The translations under genes were made by a program, and so were the position numbers. DNA of 64,000 nt from Escherichia phage JES2013: sequence record KC690136, one strand, 5' to 3'. Below are positions 1,984 through 50,019 of the stretch, in pieces; position 1 is the stretch's first letter; each line of letters begins with the position of its first letter. Below the pieces are notes generated by a model, which saw only the letters and a list, made by a program, of their open reading frames with translations, had not been told where the DNA came from and ran no database searches.

Positions 1984-2480
1984 TTATTGCGCTCCTTGTA
2001 GTAGATATGACTCCCGAATTGAGCTGTCCTCTGCATCTTTTTTGCCCATTTCGGTCGTACTTTGGTTGTATGGTAGTGTGTTGCTCCACCTGTTATGTCC
2101 ATAGCCATGTATGCAACATGGTTGTTATTATAGACCTTTAGAAGCATCTTTGCAAGACTTTTAGCGTGATCCCATGAATCTTTTTCTGTCACCTTAAAAG
2201 TTTTGCCGTGGTTTGTCCACGAAAACTGGTTAGGTTGGTAGACAATCTTTCTTATAGTGTCTGGGTATTTGGGGTGAGATTTCCTGTTTAGTGTGGCAAA
2301 CCCTGATGCCAGCATACCCATCGTGCCATCCCCTCTAGCCTCCCTGTAGATATTGCATGCCAGAATGTTTTCCTTAGTATCTGAGGGCTTGCAAGTATGA
2401 TATACTTTTTGTTTTGGTGCTGCAACAACAGGCAGCGATAAAAATGCGCTCAAAATAATAGCAAAGATCTTAATTTTCAC
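1980..2480 (-). CDS. secreted cell-wall hydrolase, SleB/Hydrolase_2-like (candidate endolysin)
   Basis: 166 aa, GTG start after GGAG. N-terminal signal-like segment MKIKIFAIILSAFLSLPVVAAP. Motif NIYREARGDG...NRK...YPDTIRKIVYQPNQFSW matches the SleB-type hydrolase signature. Confidence 0.65.
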   Translation of the reverse strand: MKIKIFAIILSAFLSLPVVAAPKQKVYHTCKPSDTKENILACNIYREARGDGTMGMLASGFATLNRKSHPKYPDTIRKIVYQPNQFSWTNHGKTFKVTEKDSWDHAKSLAKMLLKVYNNNHVAYMAMDITGGATHYHTTKVRPKWAKKMQRTAQFGSHIYYKERNK

Positions 2481-2490
2481 AATAACTCCA

Positions 2491-2517
2491 AATAGAAAAT
2501 CCCCGCCGAAGCGGGGG
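2491..2517 (-). terminator. rho-independent terminator, hairpin CCCCGC-CGAA-GCGGGG plus U-tract
   Basis: Perfect GC stem with CGAA loop, followed on the minus strand by ATTTTCTATTT. Lies between the convergent-free gap of ORFs 2530..2910 and 1980..2480. Confidence 0.6.
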
Positions 2518-2529
2518 AGGTCTTAGAAA

Positions 2530-2910
2530 TTAATCGTAGTGTGCCAAAATCTCTCCATCGTTGCAAGTTCCCTCTACAAAGTTATGAAGATTCATGCACT
2601 CATCTTGATAGAAGAATTTACCGCTTTTCAGCCGTAAGCCAAACAACTCCGCATCTCCACGATGGCAAGCCTCTACAAGTTCATAGATTTCATACGGCAA
2701 CTCTCCGTCGTCATGGAAGAACCCAGCCTTATCGTTGACATAGATGAAGAAATAATCACTGCTGTCGCAAGCGTCCAATATTTTAAACCAGATTTCATCT
2801 ACATCTTTTTCTCGGATATCGATCACGCAAGTGGAGCTGCATTCGTACTCCTTCTCCGGCTCCTCGGTCAATACCACCAGGTAGTTTCCCCGCTTACCTA
2901 CTTTAGCCAT
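2530..2910 (-). CDS. hypothetical protein
   Basis: 126-aa ORF co-oriented in the leftward early operon; no recognisable motif. Confidence 0.45.
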   Translation of the reverse strand: MAKVGKRGNYLVVLTEEPEKEYECSSTCVIDIREKDVDEIWFKILDACDSSDYFFIYVNDKAGFFHDDGELPYEIYELVEACHRGDAELFGLRLKSGKFFYQDECMNLHNFVEGTCNDGEILAHYD

Positions 2911-2919
2911 ACAACCTCC

Positions 2920-4104
2920 TTAAGCTTTAGCCAAAATGGCGCTAAACTCTTCACCAAACTCTTTTACAATCTTCATCAGGTTTGGGTATGCTTTGATCAG
3001 CTGAGCAACGATCTTGTCACGACCTTTACCGATAAGCAAGGCATTTCCTAAGGCATTAGGTTTCATCATCGCCATAAAGACTGAAAATACAAAATCTCGG
3101 TTCTCGTCCTTGAAGTTTTCCCAAAGGAAATCGAGAAAGTTTGCCACACAGCTAACAAGATCTTCGTCGGAGATACTTGCATTTTCCATCATATTACGAA
3201 TAGCGATGCAACCTTCAGATCCAAGAATCCACAAGATGTCTGGCTGTTTAGGACCTACGTATTCTTTGCAACCTCCTGCCATAATCCGACCGATTTCCGG
3301 TAAGTTGCGTTTCTTGGTGTGGTAAGTCCAGATCTCTACCGCTGCAGTGTGACCAATAGCACCTTGCAGAAGAACACGGGCCATAGCGTCAGAAATAATA
3401 CCGCTGTCAAAATCGTGCAAGATATCAGATGCAGCAACCCAAGATCGCGGTGTGGCAAAAGATGGACAATTAATCTCAGCCATGGCCTCATAATTATCGA
3501 TAGCTGATGGAACTCTTTTCAGATATCCAATTACAGAGGAGTGCACCCCATTAAGGAATGCGTAGTCCTCAATAAACACCTCTGCATTGCTTGTAACCTC
3601 TACAATGATAAAACGGTTAGCCAGAGGGGCTTCGAGCGCCGAAAGAACCGCACCATCTGTAGAACGGTTACCAGCAGCCACAAAAACAGAACCCTTAGGG
3701 AATGCATAGGTACCGCACTTGTGGTCAAGCATAATTTGCATTGCAACCTTTTGCAGGTAGTTATCTGCATGAGTGAGCTCATCCAGAAAGATAATTCCGC
3801 TCCAGTCAGGATCCGCAGGCCAAAATTCTGGAATTGCAAACACTGTACGTGTAGTTCCATCCGCTTCTACAGGGATAGGTAGCCCAGATAAGTCGGCAGG
3901 ATCTTTATCTGACAGTCGCACGTCAACAAGGTTGTCATCTCGCTCACCGAACATATTATCAGCGATCTGCTTCATCACCTGGCTTTTACCCACACCCATT
4001 GGTCCCAAAATTAGGACAGATCGGCTATGACGTTGGGCAAACTGAATAATAGCTGGCAACTCACGGACAGTGATTTGACCACTTTCGAATACGTTTCTTG
4101 ACAT
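2920..4104 (-). CDS. MoxR-like AAA+ ATPase (AAA_5 type)
   Basis: 394 aa. Walker A LILGPMGVGKSQ, Walker B IIFLDELTHA, sensor region VFVAAGN. Single-AAA domain of MoxR/CbbQ/CobS type. Confidence 0.7.
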   Translation of the reverse strand: MSRNVFESGQITVRELPAIIQFAQRHSRSVLILGPMGVGKSQVMKQIADNMFGERDDNLVDVRLSDKDPADLSGLPIPVEADGTTRTVFAIPEFWPADPDWSGIIFLDELTHADNYLQKVAMQIMLDHKCGTYAFPKGSVFVAAGNRSTDGAVLSALEAPLANRFIIVEVTSNAEVFIEDYAFLNGVHSSVIGYLKRVPSAIDNYEAMAEINCPSFATPRSWVAASDILHDFDSGIISDAMARVLLQGAIGHTAAVEIWTYHTKKRNLPEIGRIMAGGCKEYVGPKQPDILWILGSEGCIAIRNMMENASISDEDLVSCVANFLDFLWENFKDENRDFVFSVFMAMMKPNALGNALLIGKGRDKIVAQLIKAYPNLMKIVKEFGEEFSAILAKA

Positions 4105-44870: not shown

Positions 44871-47207
44871 TTACCAAAGGTCGGTAGACATGAAGTTGAT
44901 ATCTTTATTGTTCTCCCACTCAAGTTTTGCATCAAATATTTTGTTAAACTCACCCTCATCTATTGAAATCGTGATTTTACCATCACTGATCTCTAAAGGC
45001 AGCATTTCCATAGTTCTTAATTGAGAAGCAAAACCAGGGCCACCTGGCAACGGGAGAGTCCCGCCCGGTAAGGTGTCCAAAGGATTGACAAACCCGTTAC
45101 CTCCCGATATGATATCTTTGCGAATCATATCGCTGATAGTATCCAGCTGCTGATTTCTTTCACTCAGTGGGTTGAAACGGTCATTAAATAATTCCCCGGC
45201 GCTTAATATTGTACCAATAATACCCAGCTTACCGAGCAGACCAACTTTGCCACCAGGTGTCTTGAGGCCACCTCCTCCTTTTCCTGCCGGAGCACCACCA
45301 CCAGATCCTTTTGTAGTAGCGGCACCTGCTGCTCCAGCCGCACCCCTCAGAGAGCTAAGGAATTTAAAGGTTTTTACAAGCATGGATGCCATGACAAAAC
45401 CTTTTGTTAGGGCGTTCACTACCAGCATGATGGCAGCAGCAAACCCTGCCCATTTAGCATAGCTAAAGGTGTCATGAAGCTCTTCAGAATATTCCTTCGT
45501 CTTGGCTGTTATGAATCCCCATTTAATTCCCCATTCAAGGAAAAACATGCGGATCTTAACTATAGTGTTGTTTAGTTCACCAACTACCCAGTTAAGACCT
45601 CTCACAAACCCGCTAACAAAATCACCAGAGGCATCCCACACAAATTGTAGAGTCTCACCAGTGCGGATCAGTGTATAATAGAACTCTGTTAGTTCGTCAG
45701 ACCAACGGGTGAACAGTTTCTGACGAGTCAGTTCGATGAAGGTTTTCAGTCTGTTTTCTGCCAGCACGTTAGACTTCTGCATTCTTTCATAACCAGCTGC
45801 AGATGCCTCGTTCATGTACTTAGCCACATACTTCATGATCTTGGCTGTTTTAACCTCACCTTTCTTCATCATGTCCATAAACTGATCCATGGAGAGTTCA
45901 GAAAGACCAAAAGCCTCTTTGGTAGCCTTGATAAAAGGTTCGTATGCACCAGGTAATGCTTCAGCAAGTTGTTGCTTCAGTTCTTCGGACATTACTTGCC
46001 CTTTACCGAGCATCTGTTGGATTGCCATAATACCGCGCTGGTATTTTACCTCATCAGCACCATAAGCAGCAGCATACTGGGAGTATGCAGAAAACAGCTC
46101 ATGCACTTCCTGATTTGTCATCTGGTTTTTGGCGTTTACCGACATCTGGGCGTAACCTTGAAGACCAGATTTGAGATCAAAACCAAGACGCATAGCCTCT
46201 TGCTGGACAAACGCAACCTCACTGTTGGCTTTGTTTGGATCTCCAGTAACAGCAGTAAGAGCAGCACTTGCCCCCTCCATCATGTGACCGGATCTGTTAA
46301 CCGCAGCAAATCCAGAAAAAGCTGTATACGCAGCTGTTGCATTAATAACAGATCTACGTAAGTCTCTCATGGCATCGCCTAGTGTAAGCGTTTGGCTGGT
46401 GGCACTTTTAAATCCAGACTGCAGCGCTGACAGGTGGGCGTTAAAGGTTGACTTTTTCATCTCCCCGCGAGCAAACCTAGACTCTAACTCTGAGTATCCT
46501 GGCAAGCTTCCACGGAATCCGGCCCCATACTTGGCAGAAAGTCTTATCGCGGAGTTGTAGAGGTGGGTTCTCCTTGCCTCACGATCCGACATAAGCCTGT
46601 TATCCATACCAGCTTTACTGTCTCTTCTTAGCTGTCTATGATAACGATTCATAGCGGCTGTCTGAGCTTTCACAAGGTTAGGGTCGGAAGCCACACCACC
46701 CATATTAGGGTTACCGGGGATATATTTGAAAGATTTGGCATTAGCCAAAACTCTTGCCTTAGGTGCCTTATAACCACCGTAAGATACTGGTGCAGATTTG
46801 GCAGCCTTTTTGGCCTCTTTAGCTTGCTGCTGGTAGAACTTACGCATCCTAGCCATTTCTGGATTTTTAGCGGTAAGATTACCTACAGCTTGTTTACGTC
46901 TCGCATTCTCCCTACGTTCTATTGCAGCCCTTACTGCAGCCTCTTTCTTGGCCTGTGCTACGCTCTCTCTGTGCAGTTTAGCATTTGCCTGAGACTGCTG
47001 TCTGGCAACCCTCTGCATTGTCTGCTGGGTTTTAACAGCTACCGCCTGCCATCTACTCATGGGGTTGGCTGAGTTAAAATCCTCGCCCAGTTTCCTGAAC
47101 TCCCTCCCAATACTGCGAATTTTCTCTACAGCTTTTTTGTAGGAGGAGTTCTCTATCTCAAAGCCAATCTTGTTGACTGTTGTGGCAACTATTTTGTTTG
47201 TAGCCAT
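44871..47207 (-). CDS. tail tape measure protein
   Basis: 778 aa. Long helical Ala/Gln/Lys-rich protein with Gly-rich segment GAAGAAGAATTKGSGGGAPAGKGGGG; canonical position after the chaperones. Confidence 0.65.
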   Translation of the reverse strand: MATNKIVATTVNKIGFEIENSSYKKAVEKIRSIGREFRKLGEDFNSANPMSRWQAVAVKTQQTMQRVARQQSQANAKLHRESVAQAKKEAAVRAAIERRENARRKQAVGNLTAKNPEMARMRKFYQQQAKEAKKAAKSAPVSYGGYKAPKARVLANAKSFKYIPGNPNMGGVASDPNLVKAQTAAMNRYHRQLRRDSKAGMDNRLMSDREARRTHLYNSAIRLSAKYGAGFRGSLPGYSELESRFARGEMKKSTFNAHLSALQSGFKSATSQTLTLGDAMRDLRRSVINATAAYTAFSGFAAVNRSGHMMEGASAALTAVTGDPNKANSEVAFVQQEAMRLGFDLKSGLQGYAQMSVNAKNQMTNQEVHELFSAYSQYAAAYGADEVKYQRGIMAIQQMLGKGQVMSEELKQQLAEALPGAYEPFIKATKEAFGLSELSMDQFMDMMKKGEVKTAKIMKYVAKYMNEASAAGYERMQKSNVLAENRLKTFIELTRQKLFTRWSDELTEFYYTLIRTGETLQFVWDASGDFVSGFVRGLNWVVGELNNTIVKIRMFFLEWGIKWGFITAKTKEYSEELHDTFSYAKWAGFAAAIMLVVNALTKGFVMASMLVKTFKFLSSLRGAAGAAGAATTKGSGGGAPAGKGGGGLKTPGGKVGLLGKLGIIGTILSAGELFNDRFNPLSERNQQLDTISDMIRKDIISGGNGFVNPLDTLPGGTLPLPGGPGFASQLRTMEMLPLEISDGKITISIDEGEFNKIFDAKLEWENNKDINFMSTDLW

Positions 47208-47218
47208 GGTTTCCTCAT

Positions 47219-47257
47219 AATAAAAAAGGGCCAGATCCCAGAAAAGGAATCCGGCCC
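47219..47257 (-). terminator. candidate terminator, imperfect hairpin plus T-run
   Basis: GGGCCGGATTCC...GGATCTGGCCC followed on the minus strand by TTTTTTATTATG. Confidence 0.4.
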
Positions 47258-47262
47258 TTAGA

Positions 47263-47511
47263 TTATCCTCTCCTGCGCTTAGCTTTCGCAGCAGCTGCGG
47301 CAGCCTTCTGCTCCCGCTCCATTTCCCTGTTTTGGACGGTATCTAGGAATTCTTCGATATCAAGATACTCACAGAGCTTCAGGAAATACGCCATATCTGC
47401 AAGATTTAGCGATTCAAAATTTTCCCCTTTGAAATTCTTGAGCACCCTGCACCAAAGAAAGTCGAACCAGTTGAGTGAACTATTCTTAGCTGCCCACTCA
47501 CTGGCCCTCAC
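47263..47511 (-). CDS. tail assembly chaperone, downstream -1 frame segment
   Basis: 82-aa ORF with GTG start in the track. The same frame stays open upstream across the 3' end of 47523..47996. Confidence 0.45.
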   Translation of the reverse strand: MRASEWAAKNSSLNWFDFLWCRVLKNFKGENFESLNLADMAYFLKLCEYLDIEEFLDTVQNREMEREQKAAAAAAKAKRRRG

Positions 47512-47522
47512 AACAACCTTGC

Positions 47523-47996
47523 TTATTCCTGCTCTTCCGGAGTCTGATCCAGGTTGTTCACCTGCTGAATCATACCCATCTGCTGTAACATCTCCAGAAG
47601 GCTTCCTAAACCGTCTTGTGTGAAAAAACAGCCGTAGTTAACCTCCAGAACCTTACCTGCCAGCTTAATCATCTCCAGCAGATGCCCTGCAAACACAACA
47701 TCAGGGTTAAGCTTATCCACACCATCTACGGTAATATCTTCGAACAAGATTTTAAATAACTCTTCAATAGAGCTATCATCGAGTTCTTGGAACAGGTAAG
47801 CCAGAGCAGTAGGAAGGACCTCTGCCATATTCTGACCACCAGAGATAATAGATCCACCGATAGCACCTAGCGGGACAGCCACAATCTTACCGATTTTAGG
47901 CATGTTTTTCATTGCTTTCATCGGTCCCCAGTGGGTGATCACAAAGTTGTGCCCTGCTAAATCAATCTCTGTTGTAGGTCTAAAGTTTATAGCCAT
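47523..47996 (-). CDS. tail assembly chaperone
   Basis: 157 aa between tube and tape measure genes; contains the slippery heptamer. Confidence 0.55.
   Translation of the reverse strand: MAINFRPTTEIDLAGHNFVITHWGPMKAMKNMPKIGKIVAVPLGAIGGSIISGGQNMAEVLPTALAYLFQELDDSSIEELFKILFEDITVDGVDKLNPDVVFAGHLLEMIKLAGKVLEVNYGCFFTQDGLGSLLEMLQQMGMIQQVNNLDQTPEEQE
47622..47628 (-). other. candidate -1 programmed ribosomal frameshift slippery heptamer T-TTT-TTC
   Basis: In the chaperone frame the codons are tgT TTT TTC; the -1 frame is then open with no stop through the downstream ORF. Confidence 0.5.
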
Positions 47997-48109
47997 TTTA
48001 TAGCATCCTTATTAGTCATGTTGTGCACCATATTTGTGTATTTTACCATGATTACGGTGCATTGTCAATTTAACCTTTCAAGCAGTTCAAGAACGTGTGT
48101 CAAAACCAT

Positions 48110-48140
48110 AAAAGCAAAAAGCCCCACCCGAAGGTGAGGC
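48110..48140 (-). terminator. rho-independent terminator after tail tube gene
   Basis: GCCTCACC-TTCG-GGTGGGGC hairpin followed on the minus strand by TTTTTGCTTTTATGG. Confidence 0.5.
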
Positions 48141-48158
48141 TTATGCTAAAGTGTGCCC

Positions 48159-48632
48159 TTAGATAATACCTGCAAGACCTGCGAGGCCAGTAAGAGCACC
48201 AGTGATGTTATCACGGTTGAGCCATGCATCCAGAATACCGATATCCCAGTCCAGTTGACCTACTTCGGTTCCGTAAGTCAGGTCAGGCTGTTTCTGGATC
48301 CAACCGATTGTAGAAATACCAGGGCCCTGGCTACCTTCCAGCAGAACCGGGAAGAATACCAGGCCAGTAATCGATGCCTGTTTCTGCCAGTCAGAAAGGT
48401 AAGCGTTCCATACAGAAGTGTTCTGCAAAGATACAGTCATAACACCAGATTGGTTACGAGACAGGGCCGCAGACATTTCGCCATCCACACCAACGTGAGG
48501 GTAGATGTTGTCTTCGTTTCTTGAAACAACGATCTTGGTGTCAGCAGCGAAGCCAGTGACACGCTGCTGCATCAGGTACAGTTTGACCTTTTTAGGGTCA
48601 TAAGCATAAGGAGTTAAAATTTGAGTTTCCAT
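48159..48632 (-). CDS. tail tube protein
   Basis: 157 aa, directly downstream of the sheath-sized gene and upstream of chaperones and tape measure. Confidence 0.5.
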   Translation of the reverse strand: METQILTPYAYDPKKVKLYLMQQRVTGFAADTKIVVSRNEDNIYPHVGVDGEMSAALSRNQSGVMTVSLQNTSVWNAYLSDWQKQASITGLVFFPVLLEGSQGPGISTIGWIQKQPDLTYGTEVGQLDWDIGILDAWLNRDNITGALTGLAGLAGII

Positions 48633-48642
48633 CTAGTCTTCC

Positions 48643-50019
48643 TTATTCAGTCATTGCAACAGCATTGGTAGATTTAGAACCAACTTTGTCCAGAAGGACG
48701 TTGATCCGGATACGAACGAAGTGCAGGGCGTTGTTATACACCAGTTCTACTTTCACACCTTCCAGAACACGAGCAGCCAACTGATTGGTTGGAATCTCTG
48801 CACGTTTAGGAACTGTGATGATCGGGTCGTAGAACACATTGTTGTCTTCGTCAAAACCTGTCAGGATCGCGCCATTCTTAATGCCAGTATTGATCGGGTT
48901 GTTCATCAGAACAGACTTGATAACCGGAAGATCATCATCAGACATCTTCATGCTTAAACCCATATTAGAGCGACGATGCATGTACCCAAACATGGATTCT
49001 TCAGATCTGAACTTGATCCAGTGTGCAAAACGAATAGCGTCTGCATACTGACCTGAAGCACACTTGCCTTCCCAGAAAGCGCCAACACCGTTAATCATTC
49101 TGTAGAAGTTAACGTGGTTTTCCCAAATAGCCATACGCTGAGTTAAAGTCAGAGATGGTGCAATCACACCTGACATCTGTTTTAAGTGCAAGCTGTCGCC
49201 GTAAGACGGATCGTTGGATGCCATAGCACCTATGATACCACCCTCCGGGAAGTCCTTATCTGCACGAGGATCGTACATGCCGACACTGTCATATTGTGCA
49301 GCTTTCAGTTTGGTGGCGATGTTATTATCTTTACCAGTCACATCTTCTGCAGTAGAGTAGACATGCAGCTTGTAGTTAGCCTGAGCCCACTTAGCACATG
49401 CTTCAATGTCGGTGTGGTCTTCATGGCACAGGAAGTACCAATTGTCACGCTCAGCATTGATCTTATCAACTACTGTAGAAGGTTTTTCAGCATTGGCGAT
49501 ATTTTTGATTGTATAGTTACCAGTATGGTAACCAACAGTACAGTCACCAGTGATGGTGAGAACACCTTCAGAAGCCTCTACAGTGATATCGTTCAAGCTA
49601 TCATCTGCTTCAATTTTAGTCTTCATTGACTCTGCAATCTGAGTTGCACCTGTTCCACCAGAGATAGGTACTATCAAAGAAGTATTGTAGCTACCTTTTG
49701 CAATAGTCATTACGACATCGGTATCGGCTGCGGCAGCAATACCTTTAAAATCTACAGTGGTCTTTTCTTTGGCCTGTCTGCCGATCATAACGTATTGTGG
49801 AGGGAATACACCACCAAAAGCTTTTGCTGCAAACTCATACGCTGCAGAGCCTTGTGCGAAACCATCTTCCACCATCTGATCCAGCTCTGCATATACGCGA
49901 GCTCGCTCAGTAAAGTTGTTGTGGATAGCGATGAACAGGGGAGTTTCGAAACCTACAGTGTCAATAGGCTGGGTTCCGAGGTTAACTGTAACATCTACCA
50001 CTTTATCTAAATATGGCAT
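48643..50019 (-). CDS. tail sheath protein
   Basis: 458 aa; call from gene order (sheath, tube, chaperones, tape measure) and size. Confidence 0.5.
   Translation of the reverse strand: MPYLDKVVDVTVNLGTQPIDTVGFETPLFIAIHNNFTERARVYAELDQMVEDGFAQGSAAYEFAAKAFGGVFPPQYVMIGRQAKEKTTVDFKGIAAAADTDVVMTIAKGSYNTSLIVPISGGTGATQIAESMKTKIEADDSLNDITVEASEGVLTITGDCTVGYHTGNYTIKNIANAEKPSTVVDKINAERDNWYFLCHEDHTDIEACAKWAQANYKLHVYSTAEDVTGKDNNIATKLKAAQYDSVGMYDPRADKDFPEGGIIGAMASNDPSYGDSLHLKQMSGVIAPSLTLTQRMAIWENHVNFYRMINGVGAFWEGKCASGQYADAIRFAHWIKFRSEESMFGYMHRRSNMGLSMKMSDDDLPVIKSVLMNNPINTGIKNGAILTGFDEDNNVFYDPIITVPKRAEIPTNQLAARVLEGVKVELVYNNALHFVRIRINVLLDKVGSKSTNAVAMTE

What the first reader, a model, noticed from the sequence alone, without database searches (positions are those of the whole stretch)
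47263..47996. Candidate -1 programmed frameshift in the tail assembly chaperone
The 157-aa chaperone ORF contains the slippery heptamer T-TTT-TTC (rc of 47622-47628). From that point the -1 frame is open with no stop for about 120 codons and runs directly into the downstream 82-aa ORF. This matches the conserved chaperone frameshift found between tube and tape measure genes, and would give a fusion of roughly 240 aa.
Basis: seen in the sequence. Interest (0 to 1): 0.5.

Follow-up and report, generated by a model that had tools for sequence, protein, structure and literature searches.

The report
Tail chaperone -1 frameshift site, unannotated
This rV5-like E. coli phage almost certainly makes a short and a long tail-assembly chaperone from one gene by a programmed -1 ribosomal slip at T_TTT_TTC, an ordinary and well-known phage device that none of the database records I checked for this phage group annotates.

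Summary
The window is an rV5-like Vequintavirus. On the minus strand the order is sheath, tube, a 157-aa chaperone (G, Pfam Phage_TAC_15), an 82-aa ORF, then the tape measure gene. T_TTT_TTC (47628-47622) is the only in-phase canonical heptamer in the overlap. The -1 frame opens 3 codons before it and stays open for 119 codons after the slip. This predicts a 244-aa, 27.1-kDa GT fusion.

- The heptamer sits at the same place and phase in 12 of 13 divergent GenBank relatives and in 51 of 51 metagenomic relatives.
- Its codons are frozen: TTT at F124 in 465 of 465 comparisons, against 0.47 on average.
- A -1-frame motif just after the slip is conserved.
- Only 9 of 31 lineages have a start codon for the downstream ORF.
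- More distant relatives use other slip motifs (G_GGA_AAG, A_AAT_TTT, C_CCT_TTT) at the equivalent spot.

A conserved Shine-Dalgarno-like GGAGGT lies 12 nt upstream. No conserved 3' RNA structure was found.

No protein or reporter evidence exists, and none of the 23 records inspected annotates the frameshift. A 2025 paper predicts the same device in sister families. Verdict: a new member of a known kind, of modest interest.

The parts
47523..47996 (-). Gene G: 157-aa (17.2 kDa) tail assembly chaperone, the product of standard zero-frame decoding.
47622..47628 (-). Slippery heptamer T_TTT_TTC (U_UUU_UUC in the mRNA), spanning the last base of G codon 123 and codons 124-125. This is the proposed -1 shift site.
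   Evidence: Only in-phase canonical heptamer in the overlap. Conserved in place and phase in 12/13 and 51/51 relatives. Codon identity is 1.00 at F124 and 0.94 at F125, against a gene average of 0.47. H_HH.U_UU.Y heptamers are among the most efficient in E. coli (PMC4066793).
47641..47646 (-). Shine-Dalgarno-like GGAGGT, 12 nt 5' of the heptamer. Candidate 5' stimulator (inferred).
   Evidence: GGAGGT or GAGGT lies at exactly 12 nt in 22 of 31 representative lineages, and GGAG at 14 nt in 3 more. The Glu codon here is GAG in 24 of 29, against 106 of 352 elsewhere in the same genes (Fisher 3e-8, not corrected for phylogeny). It falls inside the 6-17 nt interval reported as stimulatory (PMC4066793).
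47638..47640 (-). Last stop codon (TAA) of the -1 frame upstream of the shift site. It confines any productive shift to the next few codons.
   Evidence: Frame translation.
47263..47622 (-). The -1-frame extension: 119 codons plus stop. It comprises a conserved post-slip motif (HTRRFR), a variable Gly/Ser-rich linker and a conserved helical T domain. Proposed GT CDS on the minus strand: complement(join(47263..47622,47622..47996)), with base 47622 read twice.
   Evidence: Frame open. tblastn alignments to relatives at 51-60% identity begin at residue 1 of this stretch. The -1-frame motif FFxx[RK][FY][RW] is conserved, and synonymous sites of the overlapping G codons are frozen (D128 0.90, G129 1.00, L130 0.96). 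The single-sequence model gives residues 1-35 disordered and the rest helical, at low confidence.
47263..47511 (-). The 82-aa ORF as listed mechanically from GTG. It is read here as the C-terminal part of GT rather than a separate gene.
   Evidence: phrog_10409, E=1.9e-51, function unknown. A start codon at this position is present in only 9 of 31 lineages.
48040..48068 (-). Sigma-70-like promoter (TTGACA-17-TAAAAT with TG) upstream of G.
   Evidence: 11 of 12 matches. Annotated as promoter P51 in the rV5 RefSeq record.
47226..47259 (-). Terminator-like hairpin plus T tract just after the GT stop and before the tape measure gene.
   Evidence: 14-bp stem. Annotated as a rho-independent terminator in rV5.
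48159..48632 (-). Tail tube gene (upstream neighbour).
   Evidence: Pfam PF11681 KPP10_Orf10, 7.2e-09. phrog_280.
44871..47207 (-). Tape measure protein gene (downstream neighbour).
   Evidence: Pfam TMP_3, 1.5e-18. phrog_5255, E=0.

Best explanation
[quoted passage not shown] Most ribosomes read gene G to its stop and make the 157-aa chaperone. A minority slip back one base when tRNA-Phe occupies UUU in the P site and UUC in the A site of U_UUU_UUC. They then read 119 more codons in the -1 frame and make a 244-aa GT protein. GT consists of the folded chaperone domain (residues 1-125), a flexible linker and a helical T domain. The slip falls exactly at the end of the folded domain, so G keeps a private 32-residue tail that GT lacks. 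A GGAGGT 12 nt upstream probably pairs with 16S rRNA in the elongating ribosome and raises the slip frequency. No 3' RNA structure seems to be involved. By analogy with lambda, G and the G part of GT would coat the tape measure protein, and the T domain would recruit the tube protein. The fixed G:GT ratio would be set by slip efficiency. Shown here: the sequence anatomy, family membership and evolutionary conservation. Inferred: the slip itself, its efficiency, the role of the SD-like element and the protein functions.
For: Anatomy. Family and gene context: G is Phage_TAC_15 / phrog_3840 and lies between the tube and tape measure genes.

Conservation of the site:
- T_TTT_TTC is in the same place and phase in 12 of 13 GenBank relatives spanning Vequintavirinae, Stephanstirmvirinae and Aeromonas phages at 28-55% identity. 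In every case the -1 frame is open for 119-141 codons and the +1 frame is closed.
- The same holds in 51 of 51 viral-metagenome loci.
- Among 31 lineages below 90% identity, codon identity given the same amino acid is 1.00 and 0.94 at the two Phe codons, against 0.47 overall.

Translation of the -1 frame from the slip onward:
- The motif FFxx[RK][FY][RW] is conserved, and the overlapping G codons 128-130 have frozen synonymous sites.
- tblastn alignments start at the first post-slip residue.

No independent start: only 9 of 31 lineages have ATG, GTG or TTG near the edge of the T domain.

Slip-site turnover in other members of the same Pfam family:
- Canonical in-phase heptamers: G_GGA_AAG in Barbavirus, A_AAT_TTT in Vibrio PWH3a-P1, C_CCT_TTT in KLEP7.
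- A-site tetramer only: U_UUU in KIL2 and Herod.
- These A-site tetramers (A_AA.G, U_UU.C, U_UU.U) are the three best in E. coli (PMC4066793).

Other points: the SD-like element shows codon bias, the slip sits at the domain boundary, and all five substitutions between the window and rV5 fall at third codon positions of the G or T frame.
Against: There is no direct evidence for a GT protein, and the rV5 genome and proteome paper mentions neither a frameshift nor these genes. No conserved 3' stimulatory structure was found, so efficiency may be low. In this particular phage a GTG with a weak AAGG upstream lies 12 nt after the G stop, so some independent or coupled initiation of an 82-aa product cannot be excluded. 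The metagenomic loci were retrieved with a peptide pattern that includes FF, so they are unbiased for codon choice but not for the presence of Phe-Phe. The codon-bias statistics are not corrected for shared ancestry.
Confidence: 0.9

Rival explanations
1. There is no frameshift. The 82-aa ORF is a separate small gene translated from its GTG at 47511, perhaps by coupling to termination at the G stop 12 nt upstream. The open -1 frame upstream of it would be incidental.
For: A GTG start with a weak AAGG five bases upstream exists in the window. Many GenBank records annotate a separate small ORF here.
Against: Only 9 of 31 lineages have a canonical start near the N-terminal edge of the conserved domain. 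In several the first start lies 60-85 residues after the slip, deep inside the domain. Annotators pick different starts or call no gene at all. Conservation of the -1 frame extends upstream to the heptamer. The -1 frame is open from the heptamer in all 64 relatives analysed.
Confidence: 0.04
2. The long form is made by transcriptional slippage. RNA polymerase would add one U at the T6 run, giving a minority of mRNAs in which G and T are in one frame.
For: The site is a homopolymeric run. A T run of 5-6 is present in most relatives, and in KIL2 and Herod it sits in a different phase from the one in rV5, which a polymerase mechanism would tolerate. T7 runs are avoided in E. coli genes, possibly because of transcriptional slippage (PMC4066793).
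Against: Six T is short for productive slippage by bacterial RNA polymerase, which usually needs about 8-9 or more (my own knowledge, not tested here). Relatives in the same Pfam family have only T4 or T5, or a non-homopolymeric G_GGA_AAG or A_AAT_TTT in the correct phase. Those fit only ribosomal slippage. In every lineage examined the A-site codon with its preceding base is one of the three best ribosomal -1 tetramers. The conserved SD-like element upstream makes sense only for a translating ribosome.
Confidence: 0.04
3. The heptamer and the open frame are chance features that merely reflect conserved Phe-Phe residues, and the downstream conserved ORF is expressed in some unrelated way.
For: Phe-Phe is nearly invariant at the protein level. 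A single in-phase heptamer in 38 codons is not rare (about 0.15 expected).
Against: Protein conservation does not explain the fixed synonymous choice NNT TTT TTC: 465/465 and 0.94 against a 0.47 background. It also does not explain the replacement of the site by other slippery motifs where Phe-Phe is lost, or a -1 frame that is always open while the +1 frame is always closed.
Confidence: 0.02

Closest known systems
Bacteriophage lambda gpG/gpGT and the conserved tail-assembly frameshift of long-tailed dsDNA phages (Levin et al. 1993; Xu, Hendrix & Duda 2004; summarised in PMC5009743)
   Same: Two overlapping ORFs lie between the major tail (tube) gene and the tape measure gene. The second ORF is in the -1 frame without a reliable start of its own. 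There is an in-phase X_XXY_YYZ heptamer. The long form is N-terminal chaperone plus a T domain. No 3' structure was found here.
   Different: The heptamer is U_UUU_UUC rather than G_GGA_AAG. The host virion is a contractile-tailed phage of about 137 kb. The slip lies 32 codons before the G stop, so G has a sizeable private C-terminal tail. There is no detectable sequence similarity to lambda G, which belongs to a different Pfam TAC family. An SD-like element is conserved upstream.
Predicted -1 frameshift at an invariant GTTTTT motif in the chaperone locus of Vandenendeviridae (Pseudomonas phage Adele, Pakpunavirus) and Andersonviridae (PMC12846349, Dec 2025)
   Same: Same Pfam family: KIL2 and Herod score 2.5e-19 and 3.9e-19 on PF21822. 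The site is in the same position at the end of the TAC domain, uses a poly-T slip site, and has the same uninterrupted -1 frame. The post-slip motif [RK]-F-R is also shared. This is almost certainly the homologous site.
   Different: That paper covers the sister families, not Vequintavirinae or Stephanstirmvirinae. In the two relatives of those clades I examined, KIL2 and Herod, the T run sits one base later in phase (G_GTT_TTT and T_GTT_TTT), so only the A-site tRNA can re-pair. The window has a full tandem heptamer.
E. coli dnaX and IS911/IS3-type -1 frameshift signals with a 5' Shine-Dalgarno-like stimulator (PMC4066793)
   Same: A GGAGG-type element lies within the 6-17 nt interval upstream of the motif and is conserved in at least 50% of lineages. 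This is the criterion that study used.
   Different: dnaX and IS3 elements also carry a 3' hairpin or pseudoknot, and none is conserved here. Whether the element functions here is untested.

Membership tests
G/GT-type tail assembly chaperone with programmed -1 frameshift (lambda paradigm) | Two overlapping ORFs located between the major tail/tube gene and the tape measure gene | tested here: met
   The order on the minus strand is tube 48159-48632, G 47523-47996, T ORF 47263-47511, TMP 44871-47207.
G/GT-type tail assembly chaperone with programmed -1 frameshift (lambda paradigm) | Upstream ORF belongs to a tail assembly chaperone family | tested here: met
G/GT-type tail assembly chaperone with programmed -1 frameshift (lambda paradigm) | Downstream ORF is in the -1 frame, open back to the shift site, and lacks a conserved start codon | tested here: met
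   The -1 frame is open over 47637-47266. It is open in all 64 relatives. A start codon is present in only 9 of 31 lineages.
G/GT-type tail assembly chaperone with programmed -1 frameshift (lambda paradigm) | In-phase slippery sequence in the overlap, conserved among relatives beyond what the protein sequence requires | tested here: met
   T_TTT_TTC in 12/13 and 51/51 relatives. Codon identity 1.00 and 0.94 against 0.47 overall. Alternative canonical heptamers occur in the lineages that lack it.
G/GT-type tail assembly chaperone with programmed -1 frameshift (lambda paradigm) | Two proteins, G and GT, made in a fixed ratio from one mRNA | not testable with these tools
   This needs western blotting, mass spectrometry or a reporter assay. 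The rV5 proteome paper does not mention these genes.
G/GT-type tail assembly chaperone with programmed -1 frameshift (lambda paradigm) | Both forms are required for tail assembly and absent from virions; G binds the tape measure and T binds the tube protein | not testable with these tools
   Inferred from lambda only (PMC5009743).
SD-stimulated bacterial -1 frameshift signals (dnaX / IS911 type) | SD-like sequence 6-17 nt upstream of the motif, conserved in at least half of the relatives | tested here: met
   GGAGGT at 47646-47641, 12 nt from the heptamer. 25 of 31 lineages carry GGAGGT, GAGGT or GGAG at 12-14 nt, and GAG is enriched at that codon. Function is untested.
SD-stimulated bacterial -1 frameshift signals (dnaX / IS911 type) | 3' hairpin or pseudoknot starting 4-10 nt after the motif | tested here: not met
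   RNAalifold gave 0 pairs on 13 Vequintavirinae sequences. In the window the 62-nt and 122-nt folds have z = +0.58 and -0.91.
Transcriptional slippage sites | Long homopolymeric A or T run (about 8-9 or more for bacterial RNA polymerase; from my own knowledge), with phase irrelevant | tested here: not met
   The run is T6 here. It is T4-T5 or absent (GGGAAAG) in relatives of the same family.

The most novel reading that the evidence does not exclude
The shift site would be an ancient feature at the end of the Phage_TAC_15 domain. It would be shared by at least Vequintavirinae, Stephanstirmvirinae, Vandenendeviridae, Saclayvirus, Barbavirus and some Vibrio and Aeromonas myoviruses. Position and -1 polarity would be fixed while the slippery motif turns over among the best bacterial A-site tetramers. 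In the enterobacterial lineages the site would be driven by a dnaX-like internal Shine-Dalgarno element alone, with no 3' structure. The 32-residue tail that only G carries would have its own function, so the shift would swap C-termini rather than merely extend the protein.
Probability: 0.4. Interest if true: 0.4.

Novelty: new member of a known kind. Interest (0 to 1): 0.3.

Why it matters
Practically, it corrects annotation. None of the 23 GenBank and RefSeq records I inspected joins the two ORFs, and these include the rV5, V18, PBES 02 and muut reference genomes. The T region is called as an assortment of small 'hypothetical proteins' with different starts, or left as a roughly 300-nt gap. 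rV5-like phages are used for typing and biocontrol of E. coli O157, so a correct gene model is useful.

Biologically, it extends the conserved G/GT frameshift to a large clade of big contractile-tailed phages. It also offers a natural series of slip-site variants on one homologous scaffold (U_UUU_UUC, C_CCU_UUU, G_GGA_AAG, A_AAU_UUU and tetramer-only sites). That series could be used to study how frameshift efficiency is tuned, including by a 5' SD-like element without any 3' structure. It does not overturn anything known.

Tried and rejected
1. I looked for a 3' stimulatory hairpin or pseudoknot. The 122 nt and 62 nt after the heptamer fold no better than shuffles. RNAalifold on 13 Vequintavirinae sequences predicts no pairs. 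Only one distant metagenomic relative (L057) has a convincing hairpin.

2. I looked for an already fused, in-frame GT homologue or an annotated slippage product among 5.8 billion proteins. All 73 hits are 149-159 aa and cover about half of the fusion.

3. I looked for prior description in the literature. The rV5 paper has nothing. Searches for Vequintavirinae, Vequintavirus, rV5-like or phi92 together with frameshift found nothing specific. Only the Adele paper on sister families is relevant. The Vladimirov et al. 2022 paper on T4-like chaperones is not held.

4. A sequence search of solved structures with a G profile gave nothing significant. NCBIfam has no model for G or T, and Pfam has none for T.

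5. The T-domain structure from a single sequence was too poor (pLDDT 53) to use for a fold search.

6. I checked whether the 1-nt length difference between the window and most rV5-like records lies in the T6 run. It does not. It is in the terminator T tract at 47227.

7. The +1 frame was rejected because it is closed in all relatives.

Full report
**What the window is.** The region is 100% identical to E. coli O157 typing phage 4 and about 99% identical to phage rV5 and about 115 other Vequintavirus genomes. On the minus strand the genes run:
- sheath, 48643-50019
- tube, 48159-48632
- a 157-aa ORF, 47523-47996
- an 82-aa ORF, 47263-47511
- the 778-aa tape measure protein, 44871-47207

The 157-aa protein matches Pfam Phage_TAC_15 (PF21822, E=3.3e-23) and phrog_3840 'tail assembly chaperone' (E=6.5e-69). 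The 82-aa ORF matches only phrog_10409, of unknown function.

**Check of the observation.**
- In the zero frame the sequence reads AAC TAC GGC TGT TTT TTC ACA, so T_TTT_TTC (47628-47622) is in the X_XXY_YYZ phase.
- It is the only such heptamer in the overlap.
- The -1 frame has 14 stops in the first 118 codons of G. The last is TAA at 47640-47638, three codons before the heptamer.
- After that there are no stops until 47265-47263.
- A -1 slip on the two Phe codons gives G residues 1-125 fused to 119 further residues, 244 aa and 27.1 kDa. G alone is 157 aa and 17.2 kDa.
- The +1 frame is closed.

In one genome this is only mildly improbable. The weight of the case rests on comparison with relatives.

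**Comparative evidence.** A tblastn search with G found 489 phage records. I fetched 13 loci spanning 28-55% protein identity: Seunavirus, Henunavirus, Certrevirus, phage W70, phi92-like Stephanstirmvirinae, Aeromonas Plateaulakevirus and Rheinheimera Barbavirus.
- Twelve of the 13 carry T_TTT_TTC at the homologous N-Y-G-x-F-F position, in phase.
- In all 13 the -1 frame is open for 119-141 codons across the G stop.
- In all 13 the +1 frame is closed around the G stop, with 6-52 open codons that extend only 3-19 codons beyond it.

A scan of viral metagenome contigs added 51 loci. All have the heptamer (one is TTTTTTT) and an open -1 frame. That scan used a peptide pattern containing FF. It is therefore biased toward Phe-Phe, but not toward any particular codons.

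**Codon-level evidence.** Codon choice is the informative quantity. I compared 31 lineages that are less than 90% identical to each other, and asked how often two sequences with the same amino acid also use the same codon.

| Position | Codon identity |
|---|---|
| Whole gene | 0.47 |
| Residue 123 (third base T) | 0.81 |
| F124 (TTT) | 1.00 (465/465) |
| F125 (TTC) | 0.94 |

A second island of frozen synonymous sites lies at G codons 128-130, with values of 0.90, 1.00 and 0.96. This island corresponds to a conserved -1-frame motif, FFxx[RK][FY][RW], which reads HTRRFR in the window. The -1 frame is therefore under protein-level selection immediately after the heptamer, well upstream of any possible start codon. 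In agreement, tblastn alignments of the post-slip peptide to relatives at 51-60% identity begin at its first residue.

**The rival of independent initiation.** The window has a GTG 12 nt after the G stop. Only 9 of 31 lineages have any ATG, GTG or TTG near the N-terminal edge of the conserved T domain. In others the first start lies 60-85 residues after the slip, inside the domain.

Annotators reflect this. The ORF is called with different starts and lengths (43-82 aa) or not at all, leaving a gap of about 300 nt in EF1-1, muut and Ro121c4YLVW. The rV5 RefSeq record annotates gp050 from a CTG exactly at the heptamer. None of the 23 records inspected carries a joined CDS. A search of 5.8 billion proteins with the 244-aa fusion returned only proteins of 149-159 aa covering half of it.

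**Ribosomal versus transcriptional slippage.** A T6 run could in principle support polymerase slippage. Other members of the same Pfam family argue against it.

| Phage | Slip motif | Type |
|---|---|---|
| Barbavirus | G_GGA_AAG | canonical heptamer, three codons downstream of the usual spot |
| Vibrio PWH3a-P1 | A_AAT_TTT | canonical heptamer |
| Pseudaeromonas KLEP7 | C_CCT_TTT | canonical heptamer |
| phi92-like phages | C_CCT_TTT_TTC | two overlapping heptamers |
| Pseudomonas KIL2 | G_GTT_TTT | A-site tetramer only |
| Acinetobacter Herod | T_GTT_TTT | A-site tetramer only |

In every lineage examined the A-site codon with its preceding base is A_AAG, U_UUC or U_UUU. These are the three most shift-prone tetramers measured in E. 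coli, and H_HH.U_UU.Y heptamers are among the most efficient (PMC4066793). TTTTTTC is also under-represented in the window, at 8 occurrences against 18.3 +/- 3.9 expected.

**Stimulators.** No 3' structure is supported.
- The 122 nt after the site fold with z = -0.9 and the first 62 nt with z = +0.6.
- RNAalifold finds no consensus pairs among 13 Vequintavirinae sequences.

Upstream, GGAGGT (47646-47641) lies 12 nt before the heptamer.
- GGAGGT or GAGGT is at exactly this spacing in 22 of 31 lineages, and GGAG at 14 nt in 3 more.
- The Glu codon involved is GAG in 24 of 29, against 30% GAG elsewhere in the same genes (Fisher 3e-8, not corrected for phylogeny).
- This meets the published criterion for a conserved SD-like stimulator, namely 6-17 nt upstream and present in at least 50% of sequences.

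I regard its function as likely but inferred.

**Protein anatomy.** In the AlphaFold model of G (22-sequence alignment, pLDDT 68, pTM 0.63) the confidently folded part ends at about residue 121-124, and residues 125-157 fall below pLDDT 50. The slip therefore sits at the domain boundary.

Unlike lambda, where the shift is near the very end of G (PMC5009743), here G retains a 32-residue private tail. That tail is conserved across Vequintavirinae.

**Expression context.** The cassette has its own strong sigma-70-like promoter (48068-48040). It is bracketed by terminator-like hairpins at 48142-48119 and 47259-47226, as annotated in rV5. The five substitutions between the window and rV5 in this stretch all fall at third codon positions of the G or T frame. 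The single indel is in the terminator T tract, not the T6 run.

**Comparison with what is known, and verdict.** The device is the conserved G/GT frameshift of long-tailed phages (Xu et al. 2004; PMC5009743). A December 2025 paper predicts the same device computationally, at an invariant GTTTTT motif, in the sister families Vandenendeviridae and Andersonviridae (PMC12846349). I found no paper or database record describing it for Vequintavirinae or Stephanstirmvirinae.

All testable membership criteria are met. Production of the two proteins is untested. I conclude with about 0.9 confidence that this is a genuine programmed -1 ribosomal frameshift site. It is a new and so far unannotated member of a well-known kind, of modest interest. 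The most useful by-products are the slip-site turnover series and the candidate 5' SD-like stimulator.

Noticed in passing
window 47200-48050 versus GenBank MG0656xx records: About 18-23 records named 'Campylobacter phage' (host C. jejuni, unannotated) are about 99% identical to rV5-like coliphages across this region. They are probably mislabelled or are contaminant coliphages.
   Followed up: no
whole window, both strands: TTTTTTC occurs 8 times against 18.3 +/- 3.9 in dinucleotide-preserving shuffles, and all 100 shuffles had at least 8. The phage appears to avoid this slippery string elsewhere.
   Followed up: partly
window 47226-47259 (-) and 48119-48142 (-); promoter 48040-48068 (-): The chaperone cassette has its own near-consensus promoter and is bracketed by two terminator-like hairpins. 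One of them lies between the GT stop and the tape measure gene, so the tape measure gene would need read-through or another promoter.
   Followed up: partly
L001 (rV5 RefSeq NC_011041) 1920-2288: gp050 is annotated as a 122-aa ORF that starts at a CTG exactly at the heptamer and overlaps gp051. The long open frame was evidently noticed but was not interpreted as a frameshift.
   Followed up: yes
L013 2132-2770 (Barba19A); L012 2319-3384 (Aeromonas 4L372XY): Endonuclease genes (HNH in Barba19A) are inserted directly after the T ORF, between the chaperone and tape measure genes, in two unrelated lineages. This may be a recurrent landing site for homing endonucleases.
   Followed up: no
L002 (phage V18 RefSeq) 2343-3850: The tape measure gene is annotated as two overlapping CDSs. 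This suggests a sequencing frameshift or a real disruption in that record.
   Followed up: no
L057 1573-1634: One distant metagenomic relative has a strong hairpin starting 5 nt after the heptamer (-26 kcal/mol, z = -2.3). The window and seven other lineages tested do not. This may be a lineage-specific 3' stimulator.
   Followed up: partly
L070 1030-1650 (Pseudaeromonas phage KLEP7): The chaperone has an N-terminal extension of about 50 residues (206 aa in total). Its slip site is C_CCT_TTT with only five T.
   Followed up: partly
L073 4713-5000, L074 5136-5405: In Pseudomonas KIL2 and Acinetobacter Herod the T run lies one base later in phase (G_GTT_TTT and T_GTT_TTT), so only the A-site tRNA-Phe can re-pair after a -1 slip. 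In Herod the string TGTTTTTTC is identical to the window's but is read in a different zero frame.
   Followed up: partly
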